A stretch of DNA of 64,000 nucleotides. Origin: Cyanocohniella sp. LLY. GTDB lineage: Bacteria > Cyanobacteriota > Cyanobacteriia > Cyanobacteriales > Nostocaceae. Made by a program: the position numbers and the translations under genes. The notes beneath the pieces were generated by a model. It ran no database searches. It was given only the letters and a program-made list of their open reading frames with translations, and was not told the DNA's origin. Below, piece after piece: positions 3,949 through 59,715 of the stretch (within the stretch, counting starts at the first letter, position 1; the number at the start of each line of letters is the position of its first letter). Location of the stretch: NCBI GenBank assembly GCA_022241785.1, contig JAKOMP010000016.1, positions 2,040 to 66,039 on the forward strand, read 5' to 3'.

Positions 3949-3974
3949 TACGATAAATCGATAAAGTTTAAGAA
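3949..3974. promoter_or_regulatory. Weaker copy of the 26-bp TAC-N20-GTA box
   Basis: TACGATAAATCGATAAAGTTTAAGAA. The left half is good and the right half degenerate. It lies 100 nt upstream of the mrp-like gene. Confidence 0.3.
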
Positions 3975-4073
3975 CATTATTGTTGTCTTCAATTGGCTAG
4001 AAGATGTTGACCTTAAGGAAAGGATGCTTAAACAATGACAGATTCATCGCACTCTCTGTAATAATTTTTACTA

Positions 4074-5144
4074 ATGTCCAGACATCAATCACCCTTCCAA
4101 AAACCAGAGGAAGAAGTACAATCCGCTTCTCCCGATTCTCTTACCATGGTTCGTAAACAAGAAGTTGTGCAACTCCTCAAGAAAATTAACGATTCCATCC
4201 TCAAAAATGACATCGTTAGTCTGGGAATGGTGCGAAATTTGCGAATAGTTGATGACTATATATATTTGCGTTTATATATCGGTTCCCATCAACATCAATT
4301 AGAAGCCGAGATTCAAACTGTATTATCATCTCTGACTTGGAGCAAAAAAACTTACATTCAACTCTGTACCATTCCTCAAGTAAGAACCACTCTAGCCGTT
4401 TCCAGTGGTAAGGGTGGTGTGGGTAAATCTACCACGGCGGTTAATTTAGCAGCTGCTTTGCAATTAGCCGGGGCAAAAGTCGGTCTGTTGGATGCTGATG
4501 TTTACGGCCCCAATGTCCCGCAAATGCTGGGGCTGGGTAAATCTGAGGTGAAAGTTATCGATACTCCCAATGGCCAAAGGTTTGTACCATTAGAAGCTTA
4601 CGGGATTAAAGTGATGTCTGTGGGACTGTTAGCAGAAGCAGACCATCCTTTAGCTTGGCGTGGCCCGGTTTTACACAAAATTATTATCCAATTTATCCAT
4701 GAAGTAGAGTGGGGAGAATTGGATTATTTATTAATTGACCTTCCTCCTGGTACTGGTGATGCTCAAATTACGATTGTGCAAGAAAGCCCTATTTGTGGGG
4801 TAATCTTGGTCACAACTCCCCAAAATGTCGCTGTTTCGGATGTCCGCCGCAGTATTTATATGTTTCGTCAAGTTGGGGTTCCTGTGGTCGGTATTATCGA
4901 AAATATGAGCTATTTTCTAGGAAGTGGTGGCGAAAAAATTCCGATTTTTGGCAGTGGTGGAGGTCAAAGGTTGGTAGAAGAACTCAAAGCACCGCTTTTA
5001 GGACAGATTCCTATTGATCCCCTCATCTGTAATGGTGGGGATGTTGGAGAACCGCTAACACTTGCTGACCCTGATTCCACAGCTAGTCAAGTATTTGTAC
5101 GAATTGCTGAGGCGTTAAATGCTACTTTTGCTGGTTCTGTTTGA
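4074..5144 (+). CDS. Mrp/NBP35 (ApbC) family Fe-S cluster carrier ATPase
   Basis: N-terminal DUF59-like region, deviant Walker A (SGKGGVGKST) and a conserved ParA-like core. Confidence 0.85.
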   Translation: MSRHQSPFQKPEEEVQSASPDSLTMVRKQEVVQLLKKINDSILKNDIVSLGMVRNLRIVDDYIYLRLYIGSHQHQLEAEIQTVLSSLTWSKKTYIQLCTIPQVRTTLAVSSGKGGVGKSTTAVNLAAALQLAGAKVGLLDADVYGPNVPQMLGLGKSEVKVIDTPNGQRFVPLEAYGIKVMSVGLLAEADHPLAWRGPVLHKIIIQFIHEVEWGELDYLLIDLPPGTGDAQITIVQESPICGVILVTTPQNVAVSDVRRSIYMFRQVGVPVVGIIENMSYFLGSGGEKIPIFGSGGGQRLVEELKAPLLGQIPIDPLICNGGDVGEPLTLADPDSTASQVFVRIAEALNATFAGSV

Positions 5145-5181
5145 GTAATTTTCGGCGTTGCTATTAAATAGGAATTAGTTT

Positions 5182-5250
5182 CACGCAGAGTCGAGCCAGT
5201 GCGTTGGGCGGCTCCGCCGACTTGTAGCAACTGGCGTGCAGAGAGTAAGA
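5182..5250. repeat. Dispersed hairpin repeat (GCCAGT...ACTGGC family)
   Basis: GCCAGTGCGTTGGGCGGCTCCGCCGACTTGTAGCAACTGGC. A near-identical copy lies at 48426-48495. Confidence 0.75.
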
Positions 5251-5286
5251 GTTTGAGAAACGCCTCAGCACAATTTATTTATAAAA

Positions 5287-5312
5287 TACGGTAATTCGAC
5301 TGATTTATAGTA
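5287..5312. promoter_or_regulatory. 26-bp TAC-N20-GTA palindromic box (putative sulfur-regulon operator)
   Basis: TACGGTAATTCGACTGATTTATAGTA. It ends 30 nt before the ATG of the SDR gene. Its 3' part contains a -10-like TATAGT. Confidence 0.6.
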
Positions 5313-5342
5313 GATTAAATGAAGGACGCATAGGAGTAAGTT

Positions 5343-6092
5343 ATGGCAGAGAAATTAGATGGTAAAGTAGCTATTATTACTGGAGCTTCTGCGGGGATTG
5401 GTGAAGCTACGGCTATAGCCTTAGCAGTAGAAGGGGCAAAGGTGGTAATTGCAGCTAGAAGAGGCGATCGCCTGGAAGCATTAGCCCAAAAAATTGCTAC
5501 AAATGGTGGACAAGCATTACCTATAGTTACTGATATCACCGACGAAACCCAAGCCAACAACCTCATCCATAAAGCCAACGCAGAGTTCGGGCGAGTTGAT
5601 ATTTTAGTCAATAACGCAGGTATAGCCCTGACAGGGAATATTGATGGCGGTAACACCTCAGATTGGCGACGGATGTTTGATGTCAACGTCTTCGGATTGC
5701 TTTATGCTACCCATGCAGTCTTACCAATTTTTAAAGCCCAAGGTGTCGGACATATCGTTAATATTTCATCAGTCGCAGGTCGTTTAGCCCGTGCAGGTGT
5801 GGGGATATACAATGCCACTAAATGGGGTGTGAATGCTATTTCCGAATCTTTACGGCAAGAAGTATTAAAAGATAACATCCGCGTTACCATTATCGAACCT
5901 GGTTTAGTCGATACAGAAATCAACAATCATATTACCGACCCCATATCCAAACAGATTAGTGAAGAACGACGTAAATCAATCAAAGCCTTAGAAAGCGAAG
6001 ATATTGCCAGGGCGATCGCCTATGCTGTAACTCAGCCACCCCACGTTAATGTGAATGAAATTCTCATTCGACCAACTCAGCAAGATAGATAA
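5343..6092 (+). CDS. Short-chain dehydrogenase/reductase (SDR) family oxidoreductase
   Basis: TGASAGIG cofactor motif, NNAG, and the YxxxK catalytic motif (YNATK). Confidence 0.85.
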   Translation: MAEKLDGKVAIITGASAGIGEATAIALAVEGAKVVIAARRGDRLEALAQKIATNGGQALPIVTDITDETQANNLIHKANAEFGRVDILVNNAGIALTGNIDGGNTSDWRRMFDVNVFGLLYATHAVLPIFKAQGVGHIVNISSVAGRLARAGVGIYNATKWGVNAISESLRQEVLKDNIRVTIIEPGLVDTEINNHITDPISKQISEERRKSIKALESEDIARAIAYAVTQPPHVNVNEILIRPTQQDR

Positions 6093-7720: not shown

Positions 7721-7746
7721 TACGGTAAATTGCTAGATTTAGTGTA
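7721..7746. promoter_or_regulatory. 26-bp TAC-N20-GTA palindromic box (putative sulfur-regulon operator)
   Basis: TACGGTAAATTGCTAGATTTAGTGTA. It ends 32 nt before the ATG of the SsuA-like gene. Confidence 0.6.
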
Positions 7747-7778
7747 GTATTAAATCTACCTGTGTTTGCAATGTAAGT

Positions 7779-8837
7779 ATGTTGACCAAGTATTTACCTA
7801 AACGATTGATGAAGATTGTCAGTAGCTTTCTTCAGAATTATGAATTAACCAGAACGGCTGTATTTGCTTTATTCTTTGCCGTCGGATTAAGCTTGACTCT
7901 TGTCATATCTGCGTGTTCTCCCAATAACACAAGCAACTCCGCCGCCACACAAGCAACAAGTCAAGGTGTAGTGATTCGTATCGGCTATCAAAAAGCGGCA
8001 ACTATTCTGAATGCGCTGAAAAACAGAGGTGGTTTAGCACAAACTTTAGAAGCGACTGGTGCGAGAGTCACATGGGCAGAATTTCCCGCAGGCCCACCTA
8101 TGCTAGAAGCTATGAACGCAGGTAGTATTGACTTTGGTTACACAGGTGAATCACCACCAATATTTGCTCAAGTTGCAGGTACTCCCTTGCTTTATGTGGC
8201 GTATGATCCTTGGAGTCCGAAAGCTGAAGCAATTATCGTGCGTAAAGATTCACCAATTCAAACAGTTGCTGACCTCAAGGGGAAAAGAGTAGCCTTTGCT
8301 AGAGGGTCAAATACTAACTATCTTGTGGTCAAAGCTGTAGAAGCTGCCGGATTAAACTATAGTGACATTCAACCAACACATCTCACACCAGCAGATGCCC
8401 GTGCAGCATTTGAAGGCGGTAATGTTGATGCTTGGGCAATTTGGGACCCTTATTTAGCAGCAGTAGAGCATGATACAGAAGTAAGGATTTTAACAGATGC
8501 CACAAATTTAGCACCGAATCGGGGTTACTATCTTGCTCGTCAAGACTTTGTTAAGTCTCACCCAGATTTGTTGAAAACCATTTTAGATGAAGTCGGCAAA
8601 GTAGACGAATGGGCAACAAATAATCCAGCAGAAGTTGCCAAGTTTCTAGAACCAGAATTAGGTATTCCCGCAGCAGCCTTAGAGATTGGGGAAAAACGGC
8701 GGAAGTATGGCGTTTTACCGCTAACAGATGAAATCATCACTCAGCAACAAGAGATTGCTGATACTTTTTACAAAATCAAGCTAGTTCCTAAGCAAATCCA
8801 AGTCAAAGACATCGTTTGGAACGGTAATAAATCCTAG
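7779..8837 (+). CDS. ssuA: Aliphatic sulfonate ABC transporter substrate-binding protein (SsuA family), lipoprotein
   Basis: Lipobox (VISAC). Conserved WAEFPAGPPMLEAMNAGSIDFGYTGESPPIFAQ block, shared with the paralogues at 39277, 50324 and 52455. Confidence 0.8.
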   Translation: MLTKYLPKRLMKIVSSFLQNYELTRTAVFALFFAVGLSLTLVISACSPNNTSNSAATQATSQGVVIRIGYQKAATILNALKNRGGLAQTLEATGARVTWAEFPAGPPMLEAMNAGSIDFGYTGESPPIFAQVAGTPLLYVAYDPWSPKAEAIIVRKDSPIQTVADLKGKRVAFARGSNTNYLVVKAVEAAGLNYSDIQPTHLTPADARAAFEGGNVDAWAIWDPYLAAVEHDTEVRILTDATNLAPNRGYYLARQDFVKSHPDLLKTILDEVGKVDEWATNNPAEVAKFLEPELGIPAAALEIGEKRRKYGVLPLTDEIITQQQEIADTFYKIKLVPKQIQVKDIVWNGNKS

Positions 8838-8862
8838 AAATTTCCTCCCCATTCCCTCGGTT

Positions 8863-8922
8863 ACTGAGCGACTTGTACTGAGCGACTTGTACTGAGCGAA
8901 GTCGAAGTAAGTCGAAGTAACT
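8863..8922. repeat. Composite tandem repeat
   Basis: ACTGAGCGACTTGT x2.6, followed by AGTCGAAGTA x2. Confidence 0.85.
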
Positions 8923-8947
8923 CCCCACTCCCCATTTGTAAAAGCTT

Positions 8948-10657
8948 ATGAATATCAACACTCAACAAATAAAAACTGATGTACTTGTCATTGGTGGCGG
9001 TACGGCTGGGACAATGGCAGGTATCAAAGCCAAACAAGCAAATCCAGACGCAGAGGTACTGATTTTAGAAAAGGCTAACATACGACGGAGTGGTGCGATC
9101 GCAATGGGGATGGATGGGGTAAACACCGCCGTCATTCCTGGACACTCGACACCAGAACAATACGTCCGCGAAATCACCCTAGCTAACGATGGTATTGTCA
9201 ACCAAAAAGCCGTATATCAAACAGGCAAATTAGGTTATGAAGTCATCCAAGAACTAGAAAGCTGGGGTGTGAAATTTCAAAAAGATGCCCAAGGCAACTA
9301 TGACTTAAAACAAGTGCATCGTGTAGGTAAATATGTCTTACCCATGCCAGAAGGTAAAGACCTGAAAACCATTCTCACCAGGCAAGTCAAACGCCACAAA
9401 GTCAAAGTCACAAATCGCGTCATGGCAACCCGTGTGTTAGTCAAAGCTGGACGTGCGATTGGTGCTGTGGGATTTGATGTTAGAAACGGCGATTATATAA
9501 TCATTCAAGCCAAAGCCGTCATCTTATGCACAGGTGCTTGTGGCAGATTAGGATTACCAGCTTCCGGCTATCTCTACGGCACTTACGAAAATCCCACCAA
9601 TGCCGGGGACGGCTATTCAATGGCTTATCATGCAGGTGCAGAACTCAGCAATATTGAATGTTTTCAAGTTAATCCTTTAATCAAAGATTATAACGGCCCT
9701 GCCTGTGCTTATGTCGCTGGGCCATTTGGCGCACATACAGCCAACGCCGAAGGAAATCGCTTCATTAGTTGCGACTATTGGAGTGGTCAAATGATGTTGG
9801 AAATTTGGAAAGAATTAAACTCTGGGAAAGGGCCAGTCCAACTAAAAATGACCCACCTTGATGAAGATACAATCGCCGAAATTGAATCCATACTTTGGGC
9901 GAATGAACGACCAAGTAGAGAACGCTTTCATCAAGGCAGAAATGAAGATTACCGCACCCACGGCGTAGAGATGCACATCTCAGAAATCGGCTTATGTAGC
10001 GGTCATAGTGCCTCTGGCGTATGGGTAAACGAAAACGCCCAAACAACAGTCCCAGGTTTATATGCAGCTGGAGACATGGCCAGCGTTCCCCATAATTATA
10101 TGATTGGAGCATTTGTTTTTGGTCGCATAGCTGGGACTCATGCCATTGAATATATTGAAAATTTAGATTTTACCGAACCAGATACAGATTTTTTAGAAGC
10201 TGAAAAAATCAGAATTTATGCCCCATTAACTCGTCCCAATGGTGTACCTCATACTCAAGTTGAATATAAATTAAGACGCTTAGTTAATGATTATCTGCAA
10301 CCACCAAAATCAGGTAATAAAATTGAGATTGGTTTGAAGAATTTTGTCCAATATCAACAAACCTTAGATTTAATGGGTGCGCGTGACCCCCATGAATTGA
10401 TGCGTTCTCTAGAAGTGCATTTTATTCGAGACTGTGCAGAAATGGCAGCCAGAGCATCATTATATCGTCAAGAAACACGTTGGGGACTTTATCATTACCG
10501 TTTAGATTATCCCGAAAAGAATGATGATGAGTGGTTTTGTCACGTCAACTTAAAAAAAAATGAATCAGGACAAATGGTATTATTTAAACGTCCTGTAGAT
10601 CCTTACATTGTAGAAGTAGATGCAGTCAAAGAATTTTATGATGTAACTGTAAGGTAA
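8948..10657 (+). CDS. AprA-like FAD flavoprotein (adenylylsulfate reductase alpha / fumarate reductase flavoprotein superfamily)
   Basis: 569 aa. N-terminal GGGTAG FAD fold, and GLYAAGD near the C-terminal third. The overall layout resembles AprA. A cognate AprB-like ferredoxin lies at 14079. Confidence 0.65.
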   Translation: MNINTQQIKTDVLVIGGGTAGTMAGIKAKQANPDAEVLILEKANIRRSGAIAMGMDGVNTAVIPGHSTPEQYVREITLANDGIVNQKAVYQTGKLGYEVIQELESWGVKFQKDAQGNYDLKQVHRVGKYVLPMPEGKDLKTILTRQVKRHKVKVTNRVMATRVLVKAGRAIGAVGFDVRNGDYIIIQAKAVILCTGACGRLGLPASGYLYGTYENPTNAGDGYSMAYHAGAELSNIECFQVNPLIKDYNGPACAYVAGPFGAHTANAEGNRFISCDYWSGQMMLEIWKELNSGKGPVQLKMTHLDEDTIAEIESILWANERPSRERFHQGRNEDYRTHGVEMHISEIGLCSGHSASGVWVNENAQTTVPGLYAAGDMASVPHNYMIGAFVFGRIAGTHAIEYIENLDFTEPDTDFLEAEKIRIYAPLTRPNGVPHTQVEYKLRRLVNDYLQPPKSGNKIEIGLKNFVQYQQTLDLMGARDPHELMRSLEVHFIRDCAEMAARASLYRQETRWGLYHYRLDYPEKNDDEWFCHVNLKKNESGQMVLFKRPVDPYIVEVDAVKEFYDVTVR

Positions 10658-19228: not shown

Positions 19229-19254
19229 TACTGTAACTTGATAGAATTACCGTA
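19229..19254. promoter_or_regulatory. 26-bp TAC-N20-GTA palindromic box (putative sulfur-regulon operator)
   Basis: TACTGTAACTTGATAGAATTACCGTA, in the divergent region between 19155 (minus) and 19308 (plus). Confidence 0.6.
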
Positions 19255-21956: not shown

Positions 21957-23267
<1,311 letters not shown>

Positions 23268-23458: not shown

Positions 23459-23778
23459 TATTAACATTTTTGACTCTCTATCTACTTACTGATTTATCTC
23501 ACAAGTGAAAAAAAAGCTGGACATACTCAAAATCATTGATACTGACGCACATTAAAATTTGCTGAAAAACCGCTCAAAAAAACCTGACAATGATATGCTA
23601 ACTTTCCTAGTTTTTAGCTATTGATTTTTTTCGGTATACATGGAATAGTAATATACATAATTATTAAATACGATTGTCCGATTGACATTAAGTATTTTAC
23701 AGAATAGGCAACTTGCAAAAGAGTTGTCATTATCTACAGTGTCAATGCGATCGCAAAGTATATTGCACAGCAAGGAGC

Positions 23779-32240: not shown

Positions 32241-32374
32241 TACTTTATCTCCTGGTTGAGTCTGATGTTCTGATATATCAGCACCTACCATTACCAAATT
32301 ATGGTGACTACTGAAATCTAAAAAAATATAAACTACAGTAATCCTATCGACAAACTGTATAACTATTTCTTAAC

Positions 32375-32402
32375 TACGGTAAGTCTATAGACAAACCGGG
32401 TA
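32375..32402. promoter_or_regulatory. Copy of the TAC...GTA box with 2 extra nt
   Basis: TACGGTAAGTCTATAGACAAACCGGGTA, in the divergent region between the DJ-1 and DUF442 genes. Confidence 0.5.
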
Positions 32403-40906: not shown

Positions 40907-40932
40907 TACCTAAACTTGATCGAATTACCGTA
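40907..40932. promoter_or_regulatory. 26-bp TAC-N20-GTA palindromic box (putative sulfur-regulon operator)
   Basis: TACCTAAACTTGATCGAATTACCGTA, in the ssuA/porin divergent region. Confidence 0.55.
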
Positions 40933-41068: not shown

Positions 41069-41094
41069 TACTAAATACCGATAAAAATTTAGTA
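41069..41094. promoter_or_regulatory. 26-bp TAC-N20-GTA palindromic box (variant arms)
   Basis: TACTAAATACCGATAAAAATTTAGTA, with perfect 8-bp arms. It lies 116 nt upstream of the porin ATG. Confidence 0.45.
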
Positions 41095-48351: not shown

Positions 48352-48425
48352 AGTTTCCGCCACAGTATACCTCTAAATCGGTTGTTTAAGGTGGGTAACA
48401 CCACCTTACTTCCTTTTTTTAATCT

Positions 48426-48495
48426 CACGCAAAGGCAAGCCAGTGCGTTGGGCGGGTTCCCCGACTTGTAGCAACTGGCGCGCAAAGGCGCAAGG
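48426..48495. repeat. Dispersed hairpin repeat (GCCAGT...ACTGGC family)
   Basis: GCCAGTGCGTTGGGCGGGTTCCCCGACTTGTAGCAACTGGC flanked by CGCAAAGGC direct repeats. A copy lies at 5182-5250. Confidence 0.75.
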
Positions 48496-48505
48496 AAATC
48501 AAGTT

Positions 48506-50275: not shown

Positions 50276-50323
50276 ATCTTGAATTGAAAAAATTTTTTGA
50301 CAAATTCAGAGGTATATTAATTC

Positions 50324-51421: not shown

Positions 51422-51530
51422 TAGTGGGGAAAGATATTTTAGTAGGTAAAAAATTACCTCTTTATCTCCAACTCTATGAATTTTGTGTTTCTGTGATTCA
51501 TTATTTGTAGAAAATTTTTAATAATCAATT

Positions 51531-52394
51531 ATGTCAACACTCACCTTAACTAACTTTCAAATCACCCCTCTGAATGCACCTTTAGGCGCTGTAGTTACTG
51601 GCTTAGATGCTAGTCAACAACTTAAACCTGAAGTCATATTACAACTAAAACAAACATTACGCGATCGCCACATTCTCATCTTCAAAAATCAATACCTCAC
51701 AGATGAGCAATTTTTAAACTTTGCTTTTCATTTTGGTTCACTGTTTGTCCCTCCAGATGATATACCAGTACTCGCGTCTCAGCCAGGAGTAACACCAGTA
51801 ATTATTCCCGTTTCCAATGTTGATGGTGGCTATACTGGGACTGGGGAATTAGCTTTTCATTCTGATCATAAGTGGACTCCTTATCCTTCTAGTGGTTCTT
51901 TACTTTATGCGTTGGAAGTACCCAATGAAGGCGGAGATACGTTTTGGTTAAATTTGAACTTAGCTTATGAAACTTTAGATGAAGCTACCAAGCGTCGCAT
52001 TGCTGATTTACAATTGATTACCTATAACCCATTTGTCAGGAAACCCGATACACCCCGTTCTAAATACCGTTTTGACAAGAGTATCCCCCTAATTAGTCCT
52101 GTTTTTCCTCATCCATTGGTGAGGACCCATCCAGAAAGTGGGAAGAAGATTTTATATCTTGATTACGCCACAGAAGTAGAAGTTGTTGGTTTAGATCCAC
52201 AAGAGGGATCTGAATTAATTGAACAGTTGCGCTCGCATTTACATCAACCGCAATTTTACTACCAACATAAATGGTCTGTAGGTGATATTGTTTATTGGGA
52301 TAATCAATCAACTTTACATTATCGCCAAGCATTTAACTCTCAGCAACGCCGCGTAATGAAGCGGGTAAGTTTGGCAGGTAGTCGTCCATTTTAA
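51531..52394 (+). CDS. tauD: TauD/TfdA family Fe(II)/2-oxoglutarate dioxygenase
   Basis: 287 aa. It has an HSDH iron-binding motif and a distal WDNQSTLH...R motif. Confidence 0.8.
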   Translation: MSTLTLTNFQITPLNAPLGAVVTGLDASQQLKPEVILQLKQTLRDRHILIFKNQYLTDEQFLNFAFHFGSLFVPPDDIPVLASQPGVTPVIIPVSNVDGGYTGTGELAFHSDHKWTPYPSSGSLLYALEVPNEGGDTFWLNLNLAYETLDEATKRRIADLQLITYNPFVRKPDTPRSKYRFDKSIPLISPVFPHPLVRTHPESGKKILYLDYATEVEVVGLDPQEGSELIEQLRSHLHQPQFYYQHKWSVGDIVYWDNQSTLHYRQAFNSQQRRVMKRVSLAGSRPF

Positions 52395-52454
52395 TATTTA
52401 CCTGTTGTCATCTTGACTTAATAATCCTCATCAGAATTAATCGCTAGTTTTGTC

Positions 52455-53516
52455 ATGGTGTTTGCTACAAAATCTTTTCAATTTAATATATTTCAGAGAT
52501 TTGTATTAGTCATATTACCTGGTTTTATGGCTATATCTACCTTAACTAGTTGCTCAAATCAAACTCCCACAGCCGAGACAAAATCGGTGGCTTTTAAAAC
52601 TCAAGTTGTGCGAATGGGATATCAAAGTTCTGGTGATATTGTCAGACTTAAAGGAGTTTTAGAAGAACGACTTACACCTTTAGATGTAAAAGTAGAGTGG
52701 GCGCAATTTCCCGCAGGTCCGCAATTAATGGAAGCCATGAATGTCGGTCATGTTGATTTAGGTTCTGTTGGTGAAACTCCTCCGATATTTGCCCAAGCTG
52801 CTGGAACTTCTTTAGTATATGTAGCTGGAAGAAAACCAACCACAGGTGAAGGTAGTGGTATTATTGTTAGAGGTGATTCTCCGATTCAAAGTGTAGCTGA
52901 CCTTAAAGGTAAAAGAGTTGTTTTTCAAAGAGGTTCAGCATCACATTATTTGTTAATTAAAGCTTTGGAAGAAGCAGGGTTGCAGTATAGTGATATTCAA
53001 CCTATTAGTATGCCTCCATCAGAAGTCCGTGCTGCTTTTATCCAAGGTAAAATTGATGCTTGGGTAACTTGGGACCCACATTTAACTTTGGTACAAAACA
53101 GTGTTGATTCCCGAATTATCAGAAATGCCAGTGGTATTGCCACTCAAGGTGGATTTTATATGGCTTCTCGGCCTTTTGCAACAGAAAATCCCGAATTAGT
53201 GCAGATAATTTTAGAAGAAATAGACAAATTAGGCGAGTGGGCAGAGAATAATACTAGTGAAGTTGCTCAATTACTTGCTCCAGAACTAAAAATTGATGTG
53301 CCAATTTTGGAAACAGTTACTGCAAGAAGAACTTATCGTTTAAGAGCAATTACTCCAGAATTAATGGCAAATCAACAAGCCATCGCTGATTTGTTTTCCA
53401 CTGAAAACATTATTCCCAACAAAATTGATATTCGGGAAGCTACTTTAACATCTGAACAGTATGCGGCTTTAACACCACCAAGACTGAGGCAAGATACTGT
53501 CACTTCTCAAAATTAA
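52455..53516 (+). CDS. ssuA: Aliphatic sulfonate substrate-binding protein (SsuA family), lipoprotein
   Basis: Lipobox LTSCS and a WAQFPAGPQLMEAMNVGHVDLGSVGETPPIFAQ block. Confidence 0.8.
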   Translation: MVFATKSFQFNIFQRFVLVILPGFMAISTLTSCSNQTPTAETKSVAFKTQVVRMGYQSSGDIVRLKGVLEERLTPLDVKVEWAQFPAGPQLMEAMNVGHVDLGSVGETPPIFAQAAGTSLVYVAGRKPTTGEGSGIIVRGDSPIQSVADLKGKRVVFQRGSASHYLLIKALEEAGLQYSDIQPISMPPSEVRAAFIQGKIDAWVTWDPHLTLVQNSVDSRIIRNASGIATQGGFYMASRPFATENPELVQIILEEIDKLGEWAENNTSEVAQLLAPELKIDVPILETVTARRTYRLRAITPELMANQQAIADLFSTENIIPNKIDIREATLTSEQYAALTPPRLRQDTVTSQN

Positions 53517-53746: not shown

Positions 53747-53772
53747 TACACTAAGCCTATCAGCTTATAGTA
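53747..53772. promoter_or_regulatory. 26-bp TAC-N20-GTA box (variant)
   Basis: TACACTAAGCCTATCAGCTTATAGTA. It ends 28 nt before ATG 53801. Its 3' TATAGT is identical to that of the 5287 site. Confidence 0.45.
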
Positions 53773-55697: not shown

Positions 55698-56945
55698 TTA
55701 AGATACGGCATACATCAAAATTTGTTTTTGTGTCCCCAACACCGCATGATGATAGACTTGCTCAAATAAAACTCGCTGTGCATGACTTCCACCAATTTCA
55801 TGCAAGTGTGGTAAAACTAATTGCAGTTGTGTCACAGTTGTCTGAAAATCTCCTTGGGCATGGGCTACCATAGCTTTAGCTGCGGGAATTGCCACTTCTA
55901 ACCAACCGCGCCGCAAGAAAGGATTAATACTTAAAGCGTGATACTGCATACTTTGCAGCATTTCTTTCACCCAATCATTGTGTCCAGCTTTAGCTAAGGC
56001 GTAAACATAATGCAAATCCTGGAATGGTAATGCGTGTTCATCAATACGGCTGTATAAATAAGGACTAATACTTTGCCAACGATCGCCTACATTTACTCCA
56101 CGTAATTCCAGCCGTAACAATATTGAAATTGCCCCTACTTGGTCTTTAGGAGATTGTTTATTAGCACGTTGCCAAATGTGATTATCGTATAGTGAAAGAA
56201 CTTTTTGATAGTTTTCTAGTTTCAAATAAAATAAGGCAATGTGCCACCAATTATGGGTATAAAGCATAGAATTGCAGTTTTCCCAAGTATCTGCATAGCT
56301 TTCCATCCAAACTATACCCTCACTCACTCTCCCTTGAGTTTCCATGACATGACTAATTGCATGATGCGCCCAAGGATCATTTCTATTGAAAGCGATCGCC
56401 TGACGTGCCATTTTTTCTGCTGCTTTCAATTGATGGCATTGTTCTAAACCAAAAGCTACCATCCCATATAAATAATGATGCTGGGGATTGCTAGGTAAAA
56501 CTTTCTGGGCAATTTCGAGTAACTTTTCTTTATTACCTGTATAAAAATAATGATATTGTCCCTGCTGTACAGAGATTAAATCACGGGGAAATTTGTTAGC
56601 AATTTCTTCATGCAAGGCGATCGCTACATCAATTTCTTTGTTAGCCCAAGCCAAAATCGCCTGCACATATAACTGTTCTCGGTCAGTAATCTTAGTTAAA
56701 TTCCGTTGTGCTACTTGCAAATATGGTTGCGCTTGCTGCCAAGCCTTGCTGTTTTCTTGGGTGAGATAATAAGCACCTGCATAAGCATGAGCTAAAACAC
56801 AAGTTGGATCGGCTTCAATTGCTTGTAAAATCGCGGTTTCTGCATCTTTGCCATAACCAAGAGCTTGATCAATAAAACGGTTAATAGCTGCGATCGCCTG
56901 GGCTGAATCTGTCGTTACTACCAATCCTTGTGCATCTTCAAGCAT
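55698..56945 (-). CDS. TPR protein (TTC38-like)
   Basis: 415 aa, all-helical TPR-type repeats. It is divergent from ssuD. Confidence 0.65.
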   Translation of the reverse strand: MLEDAQGLVVTTDSAQAIAAINRFIDQALGYGKDAETAILQAIEADPTCVLAHAYAGAYYLTQENSKAWQQAQPYLQVAQRNLTKITDREQLYVQAILAWANKEIDVAIALHEEIANKFPRDLISVQQGQYHYFYTGNKEKLLEIAQKVLPSNPQHHYLYGMVAFGLEQCHQLKAAEKMARQAIAFNRNDPWAHHAISHVMETQGRVSEGIVWMESYADTWENCNSMLYTHNWWHIALFYLKLENYQKVLSLYDNHIWQRANKQSPKDQVGAISILLRLELRGVNVGDRWQSISPYLYSRIDEHALPFQDLHYVYALAKAGHNDWVKEMLQSMQYHALSINPFLRRGWLEVAIPAAKAMVAHAQGDFQTTVTQLQLVLPHLHEIGGSHAQRVLFEQVYHHAVLGTQKQILMYAVS

Positions 56946-56985
56946 GATGAATTCCTTACAGCAAGAATATAAAAGGTTTATAAAG

Positions 56986-57011
56986 TACGGTAAGTCTGTC
57001 GGAATGATGTA
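56986..57011. promoter_or_regulatory. 26-bp TAC-N20-GTA palindromic box (putative sulfur-regulon operator)
   Basis: TACGGTAAGTCTGTCGGAATGATGTA. Confidence 0.6.
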
Positions 57012-57062
57012 CTTACAAACTAGAGTATGTCACAGCGATCACAAAACCGCAAGGGATAAACT

Positions 57063-57088
57063 ACTGTAAGTTGATAAAGATGCCGTAT
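57063..57088. promoter_or_regulatory. 26-bp TAC-N20-GTA palindromic box (putative sulfur-regulon operator)
   Basis: TACTGTAAGTTGATAAAGATGCCGTA. Confidence 0.55.
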
Positions 57089-57151
57089 TTATTTTGCCCA
57101 AACTATTGCTTTGTAGAAAAACCTATGCGATAGTCAGAGTAACTCAAATAA

Positions 57152-57177
57152 TCCGGTAACTCGATAAACTTACCGTA
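57152..57177. promoter_or_regulatory. 26-bp palindromic box (putative sulfur-regulon operator)
   Basis: TCCGGTAACTCGATAAACTTACCGTA. It ends 39 nt before the ssuD ATG. Confidence 0.6.
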
Positions 57178-57216
57178 TTTAAAATCTAGGAAATATTGCA
57201 GCTACTCTGAGATATC

Positions 57217-58362
57217 ATGCAGCTACTTTGGTTTATTCCCACTCACGGAGAAGGACGCTACTTAGGCACTGCCATAGGTGGACGGTCAGTCAACTTTGAT
57301 TATTGGCGACAGATTGCTCAAGCAGTAGATCATTTAGGATTCACAGGGGCATTATTACCTACAGGGCGTTCATGTGAGGACGCTTGGGTTTTAGCATCAA
57401 CCTTGGTGACATATACCAAGCAGATGAAATTTTTAGTCGCCATCCGTCCGGGATTGATGTCACCGGGAGTAGCAGCAAGAATGGCAGCCACCTTTGATCG
57501 CATATCTGGTGGTAGATTACTAATTAACGTAGTTACAGGCGGTGATCCTGTAGAATTAGCTGGAGATGGCTTACATCTTTCTCATGACGATCGCTACAAA
57601 TTAACAGATGAATTTTTAGCAGCTTGGCGACAGATAGCAGCCGGAGAAACAGCAGACCTCGAGGGAGATTATCTGAATATTCAAGGTGGAAAACTCTTAT
57701 TTCCTCCAGTACAGAAACCACATCCGCCTTTATGGTTTGGTGGTTCCTCTCCCATCGCCCAAGAAATAGCTGCCAAACACGTAGATGTATATTTAACCTG
57801 GGGCGAAACGCCAGAACAAGTAGCCCAAAAAATTGCCTCTGTACGCCAAAAAGCAGAAGCCCAAGGCAGAACATTACGCTTTGGTATTCGTCTCCACGTC
57901 ATTGTGCGAGAAACAGAAAGTAAAGCCTGGGATGCAGCCAACGACTTAATTCGCTACGTAGACGAAGAAGCGATCGCCAAAACCCAACAAGCTTACGCCC
58001 GCATGGACTCCGAAGGACAACGCCGGATGAAAGAACTACACAACGGGTCGCGTGAAGCCCTAGAAATCAGCCCGAACTTGTGGGCAGGAATTGGCTTAGT
58101 CCGTGGTGGTGCCGGTACAGCCCTAGTAGGCGACCCCGATACAGTAGCCCAAAGAATGTTGGAATATCAAAAATTAGGCATTGATACCTTCATCTTCTCT
58201 GGTTATCCCCACCTAGAAGAAGCCTACCGAGTAGCGGAACTACTATTCCCTCGCTTACCCCTAGAAAATCAACCAATAGTTCAACCACAATTATTTAGTC
58301 CCTTTGGTGAAATCGTCGCCAACCGAGAATTCCCCAAACAACGAATCGCCACCGTAGACTAA
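57217..58362 (+). CDS. ssuD: FMNH2-dependent alkanesulfonate monooxygenase
   Basis: 381 aa LLM-family protein. The N-terminus [18 protein letters not shown] is typical of SsuD. Confidence 0.9.
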
Positions 58363-58504
58363 AATCCCCTCCGTTTATACCAATTCGCAATTCGCAATTT
58401 AAAAACTTAGATGTAGTAAAGTTTTCAATGGTTACATCCATATCAAGTTTTTTGTGAAATGGTATCACCTCTGCGTTTAAAAATCCTCAAAGGTCTAACC
58501 TAAA

Positions 58505-59071
58505 ATGACAAATATCTTAGCGATCGCCGGCAGTCCCTCCCATCCTTCCAGAACCTACGCCATCCTAGAAAAAGCTGCCAAAACCCTATCACAGCAAGAA
58601 TTAAATATAGATATCATCTCAGTACGAGATATACCCGCCGAAGACTTAGCCTATGGACGTTATGATAGTGCTGCTTTAGAAAAACCAAAAGCTCTACTAG
58701 AAAAAGCAAGCGGCGTAATTATCGCTACGCCCATATATAAAGCAGCCTACACAGGCGTACTCAAAGCATTTTTAGATTTACTACCCCAGAAAGCATTGAT
58801 AGGCAAAGTCGTCTTACCAATAGCCACAGGTGGAACCATAGCGCATTTATTATCAGTAGAGTATGCCTTAAAACCTGTGTTATCAGAACTAGGCGCACGG
58901 CATATCTTGAGTACCGTGTATGCAGTCGATAAACAAATTCAAATTCAGCCAGATGGTAGCGTGCAACTCGATGAAGAAATAGACCAAAGATTGCAAGATG
59001 TCCTCAAAGAGTTTGCTCAAGCAGTGAATTACTCCCAGAATGCTGCCAAAGAATTTGCCCATGCTGGCTAG
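58505..59071 (+). CDS. ssuE: NAD(P)H-dependent FMN reductase
   Basis: 188 aa with an AGSPSHPSRT flavodoxin-like motif. It is adjacent to ssuD. Confidence 0.85.
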   Translation: MTNILAIAGSPSHPSRTYAILEKAAKTLSQQELNIDIISVRDIPAEDLAYGRYDSAALEKPKALLEKASGVIIATPIYKAAYTGVLKAFLDLLPQKALIGKVVLPIATGGTIAHLLSVEYALKPVLSELGARHILSTVYAVDKQIQIQPDGSVQLDEEIDQRLQDVLKEFAQAVNYSQNAAKEFAHAG

Positions 59072-59171
59072 TTAATTAGAGTTTCCCTTACTCCCTTCTC
59101 AATAGCGGTTGGGTGATTGCCATCCATCTGCTATTTTTTATAAATTTTACAATTTTTCTGATGAGTTAGGT

Positions 59172-59210
59172 CGGTCGCAGATATTGTTGAGCATCTGCGA
59201 TCGCTTTTTT
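59172..59210 (+). terminator. Rho-independent terminator downstream of ssuE
   Basis: 11-bp stem (CGGTCGCAGAT / ATCTGCGATCG, including one G-U pair) followed by CTTTTTT. Confidence 0.65.
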
Positions 59211-59392
59211 ATGTGTCAGTACGTCGATAGCCTTCTACTTGATGATTCTCAGGTATGGACAAGTCCCTTATTTATTTCTTTTGATATTTTGTATTTCATG
59301 TATCAAGCTAATATATGTTTACTGTTTTGTTTATCTAATAATTCGTTCAGCTAATCATTTGCTTAACATTATTATAGTTTCTATAAATTACT

Positions 59393-59508
59393 CAGGACTT
59401 ACGTAACCAACCACGTATTTCCGTCATTGCGACAGTAGGGTTCGCGTAGCGTGCCGGAGGCTCTAGCAATCTCAAGTCCTTGATTTTCGTGGCGAGTGCG
59501 TAAGTCCT
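59393..59508. mobile_element. MITE copy B (116 bp), inverted relative to copy A, with a 6-bp TSD (ATTACT) and a nested 24-nt SDR insertion
   Basis: Same termini as copy A. ATTACT is present on both flanks. The extra TTCGCGTAGCGTGCCGGAGGCTCT at 59441-59464 is absent from copy A. Confidence 0.8.
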
Positions 59509-59689
59509 ATTACTAAAAATACTTAAAAAAATAGTCTATTTTTTATCAAATTATCGCTAAAAAGGTCGCCTTTACAAAGCTTACGTTTTTTAAAAGTTAT
59601 GACATCATCATATTCTTGATTGAGATTATGGTGAATATCTTGCTATTTCATAAAGTTATCTGTAATATCGATTACTAAGTCCCCGTAAA

Positions 59690-59715
59690 TACTAAAACTT
59701 GATCGATTATTTGTA
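59690..59715. promoter_or_regulatory. 26-bp TAC-N20-GTA palindromic box (putative sulfur-regulon operator)
   Basis: TACTAAAACTTGATCGATTATTTGTA. Its core CTTGATCGA is shared with the 40907 site. It ends 27 nt before the sbp ATG. Confidence 0.5.

What the first reader, a model, noticed from the sequence alone, without database searches (positions are those of the whole stretch)
3949..59715. Recurrent 26-bp palindromic box (TACGGTAAAT-N6-ATTTACCGTA) in front of nearly every sulfur-related operon: candidate operator of an unassigned sulfur regulon
Reading the intergenic regions, I found the same 26-nt TAC-N20-GTA element again and again.

Good copies:
- 5287 TACGGTAATTCGACTGATTTATAGTA
- 7721 TACGGTAAATTGCTAGATTTAGTGTA
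- 19229 TACTGTAACTTGATAGAATTACCGTA
- 27360 TACGTAAACCGTATAGATTTACTGTA
- 39223 TACGGTTTATCAATAGATTTACCGTA
- 40907 TACCTAAACTTGATCGAATTACCGTA
- 41069 TACTAAATACCGATAAAAATTTAGTA
- 43061 TACGGTAAATCGGTCGGAATACAGTA
- 46882 TACTTCAAATCTACCGATTTACCGTA
- 53747 TACACTAAGCCTATCAGCTTATAGTA
- 56986 TACGGTAAGTCTGTCGGAATGATGTA
- 57063 TACTGTAAGTTGATAAAGATGCCGTA
- 57152 TCCGGTAACTCGATAAACTTACCGTA
- 59690 TACTAAAACTTGATCGATTATTTGTA
- 32375, a variant with 2 extra nt

Weaker or half sites are at 3949, 23433, 30278 and 40758.

Frequency: the 8-mer TACGGTAA or its complement TTACCGTA occurs at least 10 times (5287, 7721, 32375, 43061, 56986; 19247, 39241, 40925, 46900, 57170). My rough expectation for this base composition is 2-3. 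Every copy I noticed is intergenic.

Genes downstream of the sites:
- Three of the four ssuA paralogues directly (7779, 39277, and 50324 via its operon head at 47164). The fourth, 52455, is covered only if it belongs to the 47164-53516 operon.
- ssuCB-gst, ssuD/ssuE, and the sbp-cysTW-NIL operon.
- The second NitT/TauT importer and the SfnB-like operon.
- The porin and a GST.
- Several uncharacterised operons: the SDR at 5343, the oxidoreductase-HAD-SDR operon at 19155-16699, and the small membrane protein plus PhnD-like pair.

Position relative to start codons: in four cases (5287, 7721, 53747, 59690) the box ends 27-32 nt before the ATG. In three of these (5287, 7721, 53747) the 3' arm doubles as a -10-like hexamer (TATAGT or TAGTGT). 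This suggests the box overlaps the core promoter, which is repressor-like geometry.

The dyad symmetry implies a dimeric DNA-binding protein. The window encodes no plausible cognate regulator; the only one present is a MarR at the far left edge, tied to an ABC-2 exporter. The box matches neither the NtcA (GTA-N8-TAC) nor the Crp-type (TGTGA-N6-TCACA) consensus as I remember them.
Basis: seen in the sequence. Interest (0 to 1): 0.85.

Follow-up and report, generated by a model that had tools for sequence, protein, structure and literature searches.

The report
Cyanobacterial sulfur-regulon operator box
The repeated 26-bp palindrome is real and is very probably the DNA docking site of a repressor that switches on dozens of sulfur-scavenging genes across many cyanobacteria; the most likely repressor, a CymR-like Rrf2 protein encoded beside a cysteine synthase gene, lies just past the window's right edge, and I found no published description of it.

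Summary

- **In the window.** A weight matrix built only from other genomes finds 19 boxes here, against 0.015 expected. All 19 lie in the 16% of the window that is non-coding, and all are on the 5' side of at least one gene.
- **The element.** It is a 34-bp palindrome: tAAA(A/C)-TACGGTAAnT(C/T)(G/T)AT(C/A)(G/A)AnTTACCGTA-(T/G)TTTa.
- **In other genomes.** 103 of the 120 loci are cyanobacteria of many orders. The boxes sit upstream of the same families (sbp, ssuD/E/A/B, tauD and others).
- **Not an RNA hairpin or dispersed repeat.** The two arms vary independently of each other.
- **A regulator is nearby.** The window ends inside a Crp-family (CysR-like) gene. An identical contig continues with cysA, cysE, two boxes, then an Rrf2-cysK operon.
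- **Both regulator genes carry boxes** at their start codons in every lineage examined.

I assign the box to the Rrf2 protein (about 0.6). It is closest to CymR, has no Fe-S cysteine triad, always ends in MYYI, and is co-operonic with CysK. The box length and its position downstream of the promoter fit an Rrf2 repressor. They do not fit a Crp-type dimer whose recognition helix matches NtcA. The CysR-like protein is the main rival (about 0.2). I found no published motif or Rrf2 link.

The parts
3949..3974 (.). Box (weaker right arm), between the glyoxalase gene (-, 252 nt away) and the Mrp/ParA Fe-S NTPase gene (+, 99 nt away)
   Evidence: External PWM score 19.4; gene context
5287..5312 (.). 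Box 30 nt upstream of the SDR-deaminase-DOPA-dioxygenase-like operon (5343, +)
   Evidence: PWM 36.6
7721..7746 (.). Box in a divergent gap: O-methyltransferase (-, 55 nt) and SsuA-like/FAD flavoprotein operon (+, 32 nt)
   Evidence: PWM 32.7. Orthologous boxes sit upstream of FAD_binding_2 and SsuA genes in other genomes
19229..19254 (.). Best-scoring box; divergent gap between the NAD_binding_2/DUF1932-HAD-SDR operon (-, 73 nt) and hyp148 (+, 53 nt)
   Evidence: PWM 42.7; same arrangement in L045 and L038
23433..23458 (.). Box 171 nt upstream of the O-acetylhomoserine sulfhydrylase-like operon (21957-23261, -)
   Evidence: PWM 15.9
23669..23694 (.).
   Evidence: PWM 11.0. Boxes lie upstream of rhodanese genes in L126 and L117
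27360..27385 (.). Box 256 nt upstream of the second Cys/Met PLP enzyme gene (26270-27103, -)
   Evidence: PWM 26.3
32334..32359 (.).
   Evidence: PWM 20.3
32375..32402 (.). Box variant with 2 extra nt (TAC-N22-GTA); serves the BLH-phosphatase-like gene (+, 170 nt) and/or the DJ-1 operon
   Evidence: PWM 27.0 on the first 26 nt; boxes upstream of BLH_phosphatase homologues in L054, L076, L082
39223..39248 (.). Box 155 nt upstream of GST 38384-39067 (-); it lies downstream of the binding-protein gene 39277-40422 (-), not upstream of it
   Evidence: PWM 34.9; strand
40907..40932 (.). Box in the 788-nt divergent gap between binding-protein gene 39277-40422 (-) and the OprB porin gene (+)
   Evidence: PWM 28.1
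41069..41094 (.). Box 116 nt upstream of the OprB porin gene (41211, +)
   Evidence: PWM 16.1; box upstream of an OprB gene in L053
43061..43086 (.). Box 142 nt upstream of ssuC-ssuB-GST (43229, +)
   Evidence: PWM 31.3; boxes upstream of ssuB in the Microcoleus loci L022, L063 and L078
46882..46907 (.). Box 256 nt upstream of the SfnB-like acyl-CoA dehydrogenase-hyp610-SsuA-TauD-SsuA operon (47164, +)
   Evidence: PWM 32.5; boxes upstream of hyp610 and TauD homologues
53747..53772 (.). Box just upstream of hyp88 and the PhnD-like binding-protein gene (53777, +)
   Evidence: PWM 21.1
56986..57011 (.). First of three boxes in the hyp415-TPR (-) / ssuD-ssuE (+) divergent gap; 40 nt from the TPR gene
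   Evidence: PWM 22.0; the same three-box arrangement occurs in L112
57062..57087 (.).
   Evidence: PWM 33.8
57152..57177 (.). Third box, 39 nt upstream of ssuD (57217, +)
   Evidence: PWM 39.6; most ssuD orthologues have a box 34-45 nt upstream
59690..59715 (.). Box 27 nt upstream of sbp-cysT-cysW-NIL x3; lies at about +15 to +41 of the inferred promoter
   Evidence: PWM 19.7; a box in the same position occurs in L126 and L122, and in many other sbp loci
59640..59668 (+). Inferred sbp promoter: -35 TTGCTA (59640-59645), 17-nt spacer, -10 TAATAT (59663-59668)
   Evidence: Conserved as TTGCTA-17-TA(A/G)TAT in Anabaenopsis (L126) and Chlorogloeopsis (L122). This is inference; no transcription start was mapped
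63939..64000 (-). 3' end (C-terminus ...RLRLHRIVLREEDIWHYEI*) of a Crp-family, CysR-like regulator gene cut by the window edge
   Evidence: Translation; full gene on the identical contig L131 at 4459-5046

Best explanation
The box is the operator of a sulfur-starvation regulon conserved across cyanobacteria. It is most probably bound, as a dimer, by a cluster-less Rrf2-family repressor related to CymR.

**Where the regulator is.** In this genome its gene lies 3.4 kb beyond the right edge of the window. It forms an operon with cysK and is transcribed divergently from cysE.

**Proposed mechanism**
1. When sulfur is sufficient, the repressor occupies the 34-bp palindromes. These overlap or lie just downstream of core promoters. 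This blocks transcription of sulfate and sulfonate importers, SsuD/E, TauD, SfnB-like and other oxidoreductases, GSTs, a porin, rhodanese/YeeE, cysE, its own operon, and the Crp-family cysR-like gene.
2. When sulfur is limiting, the repressor leaves the DNA. By analogy with Bacillus CymR-CysK, the trigger would be O-acetylserine breaking a repressor-CysK complex held through the invariant C-terminal MYYI tail.
3. The CysR-like activator is then also made, giving a two-tier cascade.

**Shown here:** the motif, its enrichment, its conservation, its gene associations, its placement at both regulator genes, and the gene order beyond the window edge.

**Inferred:** which protein binds the box, the sign of regulation, and the CysK/O-acetylserine signal.
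For: **The box is real and specific.**
- 19 sites against 0.015 expected, all intergenic and on the 5' side of genes.
The unspecified centre of the pattern is again T(C/T)(G/T)AT(C/A)(G/A)A.
- 118 of 162 sites with a downstream gene sit upstream of a homologue of a protein from this sulfur island.

**It acts as DNA.** The arms vary independently: 118 double deviations against 131 expected, and 434 one-sided changes. Rfam finds nothing in the window.

**Link to the Rrf2 protein.**
- cysE <two boxes about 90 nt apart> Rrf2-cysK is conserved in Chlorogloeopsis, Nostoc, Anabaenopsis, Leptolyngbya and in this genome. A box ends 3-6 nt before the Rrf2 start codon.
- S. elongatus plasmid pANL has an Rrf2 gene inside its sulfur region, and the plasmid's best box hit lies just upstream of that gene.
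- The operon partner is CysK (TIGR01139, 463.7 bits) and the divergent gene is CysE.
- The closest named Rrf2 subfamily is CymR (NCBIfam 89 bits; PDB 2Y75, E=1.7e-16).
- Only 2 of 120 homologues have as many as three cysteines, so no Fe-S triad is conserved. All 120 end in MYYI.

**Geometry.**
- The conserved core is 26 bp (34 bp with flanks), and the strongest positions are 11.5 bp either side of the dyad. From my knowledge of IscR, NsrR and CymR operators (23-27 bp), this fits an Rrf2 dimer.
- At sbp the box lies downstream of a promoter conserved in three genera, and 27 nt before the ATG with a Shine-Dalgarno sequence in between. That placement indicates a repressor.
Against: - No binding experiment exists.
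- The Crp-family cysR-like gene is linked to the box equally consistently: a box lies 4-12 nt before its start in five of the nine lineages examined and about 190-220 nt upstream, or ahead of an upstream ORF, in the other four. It often neighbours the Rrf2 gene. Co-localisation and autoregulation therefore do not separate the two candidates.
- The Rrf2 protein scores below NCBIfam's CymR cut-off (89 against 195 bits).
- The published B. subtilis CymR box, as I remember it, has a different sequence.
- One Rrf2 gene (L062) has no box within 120 nt.
- Distances to start codons rest on longest-ORF calls.
- No transcription start sites were available.
- I could not scan a whole genome, so the fraction of boxes outside sulfur genes is only sampled.
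Confidence: 0.6

Rival explanations
1. The box is bound by the Crp-family CysR-like protein whose gene is cut by the right edge of the window. That protein would autoregulate and directly control the sulfur regulon, and Rrf2-cysK would merely be one of its targets.
For: - CysR is the only sulfur regulator so far described in cyanobacteria.
- The gene sits inside the sulfate-transporter cluster.
- It has a box 4-12 nt before its start in Anabaenopsis, Nostoc, Leptolyngbya, Merismopedia, Phormidium and this genome.
- The box contains GTA and TAC triplets, which are the half-site bases read by NtcA-like helices.
- All 120 homologues keep an invariant recognition helix, matching the invariance of the box.
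Against: - The recognition helix R(V/I)T(V/I)TR is essentially that of NtcA. NtcA reads GTA-N8-TAC, from my knowledge of the family.
- In the box the equivalent triplets are GTA-N12-TAC, 4 bp too far apart, and the most conserved triplets are TAC-N20-GTA in the opposite orientation.
- I know of no Crp/Fnr member with a 26-bp core conserved along its whole length.
- GTA-N8-TAC is not enriched next to boxes.
- Loss of cysR in S. elongatus lowers thiol pools and nblA induction, so CysR acts positively. The box at sbp lies downstream of the promoter, which is a repressor position.
Confidence: 0.22
2. The box is bound by some other regulator. Candidates are the LysR-type protein encoded near sulfur genes in several loci, or a factor encoded elsewhere in the genome.
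For: - LysR genes lie within 4-5 kb of boxes in Microcoleus.
- A LysR gene has a box 54 nt upstream in Chlorogloeopsis, and a weak box in this genome.
- CysB and Cbl of proteobacteria are LysR-type sulfur regulators (my knowledge).
Against: - The Microcoleus LysR genes have no box of their own.
- LysR sites are typically T-N11-A dyads of about 15 bp inside long footprints, not 26-34-bp perfect palindromes (my knowledge).
- Linkage is far less consistent than for the Rrf2 and Crp-like genes.
Confidence: 0.1
3. The box is a dispersed palindromic repeat of the REP/MITE type that happens to be common in this island. GTAG-tagged REPs are known in Nostocales, and about one third to one half of the boxes end ...CCGTAG.
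For: - It is palindromic, intergenic and multi-copy.
- GTAG-tagged REP families are reported in Anabaena and Nostoc.
- An IS605-type tnpB gene lies at 2097-3221.
Against: - The box sits at orthologous promoters of the same gene families in several cyanobacterial orders, with variable non-consensus positions.
- None lies in the eight convergent 3'-3' gaps of the window.
- 73% of sites with a downstream gene precede sulfur-island homologues.
- No flanking repeat structure is shared beyond the 34 bp.
Confidence: 0.03
4. The palindrome acts as an RNA hairpin in the 5' leaders, for example as an attenuator, a processing site or a protein-binding stem.
For: - A perfect copy could form a 13-bp stem.
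- At sbp the box is probably transcribed, at about +15 to +41.
Against: - There is no compensatory variation: 434 one-sided changes break pairing, and double changes are no more frequent than chance.
- Mean arm complementarity is only 60%.
- Boxes also lie in divergent gaps where they serve both strands and overlap the start regions of the regulator genes.
- No Rfam family matches.
Confidence: 0.03

Closest known systems
CymR-CysK control of cysteine metabolism in Bacillus subtilis and Staphylococcus aureus (Rrf2 family)
   Same: - An Rrf2 protein without the Fe-S cysteine triad.
- CymR is the closest named subfamily and among the closest solved structures.
- The regulon covers sulfur uptake and cysteine synthesis.
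- The operator is long (about 26-27 bp) and dyad-like.
- There is a genetic link to CysK and CysE, so O-acetylserine is the expected signal.
   Different: - Cyanobacterial rather than Firmicute.
- The protein scores below the CymR equivalog cut-off (89 against 195 bits).
- The operator sequence is different.
- The regulator is co-operonic with cysK and autoregulated through two boxes.
- The regulon is much larger on the sulfonate-scavenging side and includes a second regulator (CysR-like).
- No interaction with CysK has been shown.
CysR of Synechococcus elongatus PCC 7942 (Crp/Fnr family)
   Same: - The same organism group and the same physiological regulon (sulfate permease, sulfur-regulated plasmid genes).
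- A probable orthologue is encoded in the sulfate-transporter cluster at the edge of the window and is itself preceded by a box.
   Different: - In the papers I could read, CysR's regulon structure is described as still undefined and no binding site is given.
- It behaves as a positive factor.
- Its NtcA-like helix predicts a GTA-N8-TAC site, not this box.
IscR and NsrR operators (Rrf2 family, proteobacteria)
   Same: Long palindromic operators of 23-26 bp, conserved along their whole length, overlapping promoters; IscR autorepresses its own operon (my knowledge of those systems).
   Different: Those proteins sense Fe-S status or NO through a three-cysteine cluster. That cluster is absent here, and the sequences are unrelated.
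NtcA sites (GTA-N8-TAC) in cyanobacteria
   Same: Palindromic sites that use GTA/TAC triplets and belong to a global nutrient regulon in cyanobacteria.
   Different: - The spacing and orientation differ (TAC-N20-GTA outside, GTA-N12-TAC inside).
- NtcA sites centre at -41.5 with a -10 box about 22 nt downstream. No fixed outside -10 exists here.

Membership tests
Transcription-factor operator of a regulon | Over-represented relative to chance and confined to non-coding 5' regions | tested here: met
   19 sites against 0.015 expected; all lie in the 16% of the window that is intergenic; none in convergent gaps
Transcription-factor operator of a regulon | Conserved upstream of orthologous genes in other genomes (phylogenetic footprint) | tested here: met
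   103 of the 120 returned pattern hits are cyanobacterial and precede sbp, ssuD/E/A/B, tauD, FAD flavoprotein, hyp610 and TPR genes
Transcription-factor operator of a regulon | Functional coherence of the downstream genes | tested here: met
   The window is a sulfur-scavenging island. 118 of 162 external sites precede homologues of its proteins. Other targets include an FGE-sulfatase-domain gene, an NMT1 binding-protein gene and an aldo/keto reductase gene, and a TauE gene in L102
Transcription-factor operator of a regulon | Bound by a protein; expression changes with the signal | not testable with these tools
   Needs EMSA/DAP-seq and RNA-seq with and without sulfate
Rrf2-family (CymR-like) operator | Cognate Rrf2 gene linked to the sites and preceded by them (autoregulation) | tested here: met
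   A box lies 3-6 nt before the Rrf2 start in L087, L107, L112, L122-128 and L131, and upstream of the pANL Rrf2 gene; the exception is L062
Rrf2-family (CymR-like) operator | Operator is a long (about 23-29 bp) dyad conserved along its length and overlaps the promoter | tested here: met
   26-bp core, 34 bp with flanks. It lies downstream of the sbp promoter and at the regulators' start regions. The family norm is from my knowledge
Rrf2-family (CymR-like) operator | The protein belongs to the CymR equivalog | tested here: not met
   NF047409 scores 89 bits against a cut-off of 195. It is the best specific family but below threshold. I therefore file the protein as CymR-like, not as CymR
Rrf2-family (CymR-like) operator | No Fe-S cysteine triad; works with CysK and O-acetylserine | tested here: inconclusive
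   Only 2 of 120 homologues have three cysteines (91 have one). All end in MYYI. The gene is co-operonic with CysK. The complex itself was not tested
Crp/Fnr-type site (including NtcA GTA-N8-TAC and Crp TGTGA-N6-TCACA) | Two 3-5-bp half-sites about 11 bp apart centre to centre, with a poorly conserved centre | tested here: not met
   The conserved triplets are 23 bp (outer) or 15 bp (inner) apart and the centre is conserved. There are no TGTGA-N6-TCACA sites in the window
REP / GTAG-tagged dispersed palindromic repeat | High-copy, species-specific, no functional bias, often in 3' gaps | tested here: not met
   The box is conserved across orders, lies 5' of sulfur genes and is absent from convergent gaps. 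Whole-genome copy number was not measured
Structured cis-regulatory RNA | Compensatory base changes that keep a helix; match to a known family | tested here: not met
   No covariation; no Rfam hit

The most novel reading that the evidence does not exclude
Cyanobacteria have a previously unrecognised master sulfur sensor. It would be a cluster-less Rrf2 repressor that is co-transcribed with CysK. It would use CysK as an O-acetylserine-sensitive co-repressor, docking through its invariant C-terminal MYYI tail, which would mimic the C-terminal isoleucine that CysE inserts into CysK. It would hold a regulon of perhaps 50-100 operators, including the long-known CysR, which would then be a second-tier activator. 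The CysR-like protein also ends in an invariant ...WHYEI, so CysK might gate both regulators.
Probability: 0.4. Interest if true: 0.72.

Novelty: new member of a known kind. Interest (0 to 1): 0.62.

Why it matters
How cyanobacteria sense sulfur is poorly understood. CysR has been known since the early 1990s, but a 2024 systems study still calls its regulon structure undefined. I found no binding motif in the literature I could search.

A well-defined 34-bp operator has several uses:
- It allows regulon prediction in any cyanobacterial genome. Targets include many uncharacterised oxidoreductases, a porin, GSTs and NIL-domain proteins.
- It supplies sulfate-responsive promoter parts for engineering.
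- It names two concrete proteins to test.

If the Rrf2-CysK reading holds, the CymR-type 'enzyme as co-repressor' logic would extend from Firmicutes to cyanobacteria. That would suggest it is ancient.

Tried and rejected
- **Source record.** A PLSDB plasmid search with 10 kb of the window found nothing.
- **Rfam** on the whole window gave no hit.
- **Literature.** Searches for the 8-mer, CysR, Rrf2, CymR, slr0846 and sulfur-responsive promoters found no paper describing the box or a cyanobacterial Rrf2 sulfur regulator. Nicholson and Laudenbach 1995 is not held.
- **Regulator inside the window.** The hypothetical ORFs have no DNA-binding domain. hyp135 is a Cys-rich four-helix-bundle protein.
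- **Fixed -10 element outside the box** (class II activator geometry): none between -44 and +71.
- **Second, NtcA-like motif next to boxes:** no general enrichment. The three GTA-N8-TAC hits near sbp boxes turned out to be the conserved -10 region of the sbp promoter.
- **Consensus promoter scan** of 56900-59800: no better than shuffles.
- **RNA hairpin reading:** rejected on covariation.
- **REP reading:** rejected on distribution.
- **Separating Rrf2 from the Crp-like protein by co-localisation or autoregulation:** not possible, because both are linked.
- **S. elongatus pANL:** only diverged boxes (scores 8-21), so it neither confirms nor separates the candidates.

Full report

Yes.
- The 8-mer TACGGTAA or its complement occurs 10 times, at exactly the listed positions. 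Dinucleotide-preserving shuffles give 1.18, with a maximum of 4.
- TAC-N20-GTA occurs 28 times against 11.7 expected.
The only correction is that 57063 is 57062.
- A symmetrised matrix trained on the window separates 19 sites (score >=20) from everything else. The next score is 14.5, inside a gene, and the rest are 10 or below.

To avoid circularity I rebuilt the matrix only from sites in other genomes.
- It still finds 19 window sites at >=10 and 14 at >=20. Two hundred shuffles give 0.015 and 0. The best score in any shuffle is 15.6.
- 84% of the window is coding, yet all 19 sites are intergenic. Every one lies 5' of at least one gene. None lies in the eight gaps between convergent genes.
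The other two, 30278 and 40758, do not score as boxes; 30278 overlaps a HIP1 GCGATCGC repeat.

**2. What surrounds the boxes?**

Pfam and NCBIfam annotation shows a dense sulfur-scavenging island of about 40% G+C.
- Transport: at least five SsuA/NMT1-type binding proteins, two ssuCB-type importers, a PhnD-like binding protein, sbp-cysT-cysW followed by three NIL-domain genes, and an OprB porin.
- Sulfonate and organosulfur enzymes: SsuD/SsuE, TauD and an SfnB-like acyl-CoA dehydrogenase.
- Sulfur amino-acid metabolism: O-acetylhomoserine sulfhydrylase-like enzymes, and rhodanese with YeeE.
- Others: several GSTs, and a set of uncharacterised SDR, HAD, GNAT and methyltransferase genes and an AprA/Frd-like flavoprotein gene.

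ORF 39277-40422 is on the minus strand. Box 39223 therefore follows that gene and precedes the GST gene at 38384-39067.

**3. Evidence from other genomes**

I scanned one genome per species (185,579 species) for TACGGTAANTNNNNNNANTTACCGTA, which has 18 specified bases.
- The scan reached its 120-locus limit. 103 of the 120 loci are cyanobacteria by record title. They include Nostoc, Calothrix, Scytonema, Chlorogloeopsis, Microcoleus, Leptolyngbya, Oculatella, Egbenema, Pseudanabaena, Chroococcidiopsis, Aliterella and Crinalium.
- The rest look like chance matches in AT-rich genomes. Two exceptions, L066 and L071, have a cyanobacterial-type centre and sulfur-gene neighbours.
- In the cyanobacterial hits the six unspecified central bases again read (C/T)(G/T)AT(C/A)(G/A), which independently confirms the motif.
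- The full logo from 219 oriented sites is a 34-bp palindrome: tAAA(A/C)-TACGGTAAnT(C/T)(G/T)AT(C/A)(G/A)AnTTACCGTA-(T/G)TTTa. Nothing is conserved at a fixed distance outside it.
- These loci hold 180 sites scoring >=22 in 776 kb. Only 11 lie inside my crude ORF calls.
- 162 sites have a downstream gene within 350 nt. For 118 of them that gene is a homologue of a protein encoded in this window. These include ssuD, the TPR protein, the FAD flavoprotein, ssuB, ssuE, sbp, ssuA, tauD, hyp610, the NAD_binding_2/DUF1932 protein, rhodanese and the BLH-phosphatase-like protein.
- The remainder include a methyltransferase, an aldo/keto reductase, a GNAT, another NMT1 binding protein, MFS transporters, a TauE/SafE-type membrane protein and an FGE-sulfatase-domain protein.

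In the sample I could take, the box passes all three.

**4. Not RNA, not a mobile repeat**

- In 94 sites not selected by the exact pattern, deviations in the two arms are independent. There are 118 double deviations against 131 expected. There are 434 one-sided changes that would break a helix. Mean arm complementarity is 60%.
- Rfam finds nothing in the window.
- GTAG-tagged REP families exist in Nostocales, and about one third to one half of the boxes end in GTAG. However, REPs are species-specific and show no functional bias. This box is conserved across orders at orthologous promoters.

**5. Where is the regulator?**

In fact the last 62 bases of the window (63939-64000, minus strand) encode ...RLRLHRIVLREEDIWHYEI*, the C-terminus of a Crp-family protein.

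A public contig (L131) is 100% identical to window 59482-64000 and runs 9.9 kb further. Its gene order is:
1. sbp-cysT-cysW-NIL-NIL-NIL
2. the Crp-like gene on the minus strand
3. a box
4. cysA
5. cysE on the minus strand
6. two boxes 92 nt apart
7. an Rrf2 gene and cysK
8. further on, a LysR gene with a weak box

The same cysE <2 boxes> Rrf2-cysK module occurs in Chlorogloeopsis, Nostoc UHCC 0302 and Anabaenopsis. In Leptolyngbya BL-A-14 the Rrf2-cysK pair is transcribed divergently from the Crp-like gene, with three boxes between them.

NCBIfam calls the operon partner cysteine synthase A (463.7 bits) and the divergent gene serine O-acetyltransferase.

S. elongatus plasmid pANL carries the classical sulfur-regulated srp genes. 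It has an Rrf2 gene in the middle of that region, and the plasmid's best, though diverged, box lies just upstream of it.

**6. Which protein binds the box?**

Both regulator genes are regulon members.
- A box ends 3-6 nt before the Rrf2 start in eight distinct genomes.
- A box ends 4-12 nt before the Crp-like start in Anabaenopsis, Nostoc linckia, Leptolyngbya, Merismopedia, Phormidium and this genome. It lies about 190-220 nt upstream in three further loci, and ahead of a small upstream ORF in L062.

Linkage alone therefore cannot decide. Three arguments favour Rrf2.

(a) Architecture.
- The most conserved bases, TAC and GTA, lie 11.5 bp either side of the dyad. Further blocks lie at about 6.5 bp and at the centre.
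- From my knowledge of the family, Rrf2 dimers such as IscR, NsrR and CymR use 23-27-bp operators conserved along their length. The wing reaches the AT-rich ends.
- Crp/Fnr dimers read two half-sites 11 bp apart and leave the centre free.
- The Crp-like protein's recognition helix, R(V/I)T(V/I)TR, is invariant in 120 homologues and essentially identical to that of NtcA. NtcA is also its best PDB match.
- NtcA reads GTA-N8-TAC. The box offers GTA-N12-TAC, or TAC-N20-GTA in the opposite orientation.
- TGTGA-N6-TCACA is absent from the window, and GTA-N8-TAC is not enriched beside boxes.

(b) Sign of regulation.
- Upstream of sbp, a promoter TTGCTA-17-TA(A/G)TAT is conserved in this genome, Anabaenopsis and Chlorogloeopsis.
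- The box starts about 21 nt after the -10 element and ends 27 nt before the ATG, with the Shine-Dalgarno sequence in between. That places it at roughly +15 to +41, which is a repressor position. This is inference; no start site was mapped.
- CysR in S. elongatus behaves as a positive factor. Its loss lowers thiol pools and nblA induction.

(c) Biochemical logic.
- The Rrf2 protein is closest to CymR among named subfamilies (NCBIfam 89 bits, below the 195-bit equivalog cut-off) and close to CymR among solved structures (2Y75, E=1.7e-16).
- It lacks the three-cysteine Fe-S site. 91 of 120 homologues have a single cysteine.
- It is co-transcribed with CysK, next to CysE.
- In Bacillus, CymR represses only in complex with CysK, and O-acetylserine releases it (my knowledge).
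- All 120 cyanobacterial homologues end in MYYI. The related Gram-positive proteins in the PDB end in M(Y/F)YI. A C-terminal isoleucine is the feature by which CysE docks into the CysK active site (my knowledge). This step is inference.

I put Rrf2 at about 0.6, the CysR-like protein at about 0.2, and another factor such as LysR at about 0.1.

**7. Likely mechanism**

- With sulfur sufficient, Rrf2 (probably with CysK) occupies the boxes. This shuts off sulfate and sulfonate uptake, desulfonation enzymes, cysE, its own operon and cysR-like.
- With sulfur limiting, O-acetylserine accumulates and the repressor leaves. The regulon is derepressed, and the CysR-like activator is made and adds a second tier.
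- The constant 5-nt gap between the box and the Rrf2 ATG suggests that the right arm (TAnnnT) serves as the -10 element of a leaderless mRNA. That would make autorepression direct. This is speculative.

**8. Novelty**

- The kind of element is ordinary: an operator and its regulon, with a CymR-like repressor.
- The instance appears to be undescribed. Eight full-text searches and the papers I read gave no binding site for CysR and no link between Rrf2 and sulfur in cyanobacteria. A 2024 PNAS study states that the CysR regulon structure remains undefined.
- I cannot exclude a description in subscription journals or in curated regulon databases.
- I rate it a new member of a known kind. It is of solid interest to cyanobacterial physiology and useful for annotation and engineering.

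**9. Limits**

- There are no binding or expression data and no mapped transcription starts.
- ORF starts are longest-ORF calls.
- The cross-genome sample is the first 120 hits of a truncated scan with a strict pattern.
- No complete genome could be scanned, so the size of the regulon and the share of boxes outside sulfur genes are estimates only.

Noticed in passing
window 63939-64000 (-); L131 4459-5046: The window is cut inside a Crp-family, CysR-like gene. All 120 homologues end in W(H/Y/F)Y(E/Q/D)I, so they always have a C-terminal isoleucine, as the Rrf2 proteins do (MYYI). Both tails resemble CysK-binding C-termini. This raises the idea that CysK gates both regulators.
   Followed up: partly
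window 59640-59668: A likely sbp promoter, TTGCTA-17-TAATAT, is conserved in Anabaenopsis and Chlorogloeopsis. Its -10 region produces a GTA-N8-TAC match that could be mistaken for an NtcA site.
   Followed up: partly
window 62603-63919: Three stand-alone NIL-domain genes follow cysT-cysW in place of cysA. The same trio occurs in Anabaenopsis (L126). cysA lies beyond the Crp-like gene. The role of free NIL domains in sulfate transport is unexplained.
   Followed up: no
window 45805-46212 (-): A Cys-rich protein of 135 aa gives a faint DUF326 match. pANL annotates a 'four-helix bundle copper-binding protein' in its sulfur region (8694-9050); I did not compare the two proteins directly. The nearest box is 669 nt away.
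   Followed up: no
window 26270-27103, 35237-35833, 35914-36372: Apparent gene remnants: a Cys/Met PLP enzyme covering only profile positions 107-380, a GST with only the N-terminal domain, and a 152-aa luciferase-like fragment. These suggest decay or rearrangement within the island.
   Followed up: no
window 2097-3221 (-) and 1-330 (-): An IS605-type TnpB gene (OrfB_IS605 plus the Cas12f-like TNB domain), and a MarR gene running off the left edge next to an ABC-2 exporter. Neither is associated with boxes.
   Followed up: no
L039, L058, L061, L095, L036, L080, L106: In several Nostoc genomes a box lies 59 nt upstream of a Methyltransf_20 gene. It is about 430-470 nt upstream of a flavodoxin and alpha/beta-hydrolase pair on the other side. 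Whether flavodoxin, which would replace Fe-S ferredoxin, is sulfur-regulated was not examined.
   Followed up: no
L121 (pANL) 8552, 9886, 10543, 17045: S. elongatus pANL has only diverged boxes. The inner TAAA..GAT..TTTA is kept and the outer TAC/GTA is largely lost. Its Rrf2 protein has Gly where the Nostoc proteins have Glu in the recognition helix (YLGQ against YLEQ). This may be co-variation between protein and site.
   Followed up: partly
L122 15053-15078; L131 11671-11696: A LysR-type regulator gene, near CadD and TauE genes, is preceded by a moderate or weak box. It would be a third regulator gene in the regulon.
   Followed up: no
window 36433-37383 (-): The 'hypothetical' 316-aa protein is a CmcJ/NvfI-family oxidoreductase (NCBIfam 341 bits). 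It sits in the GST-glyoxalase operon downstream of box 39223.
   Followed up: no
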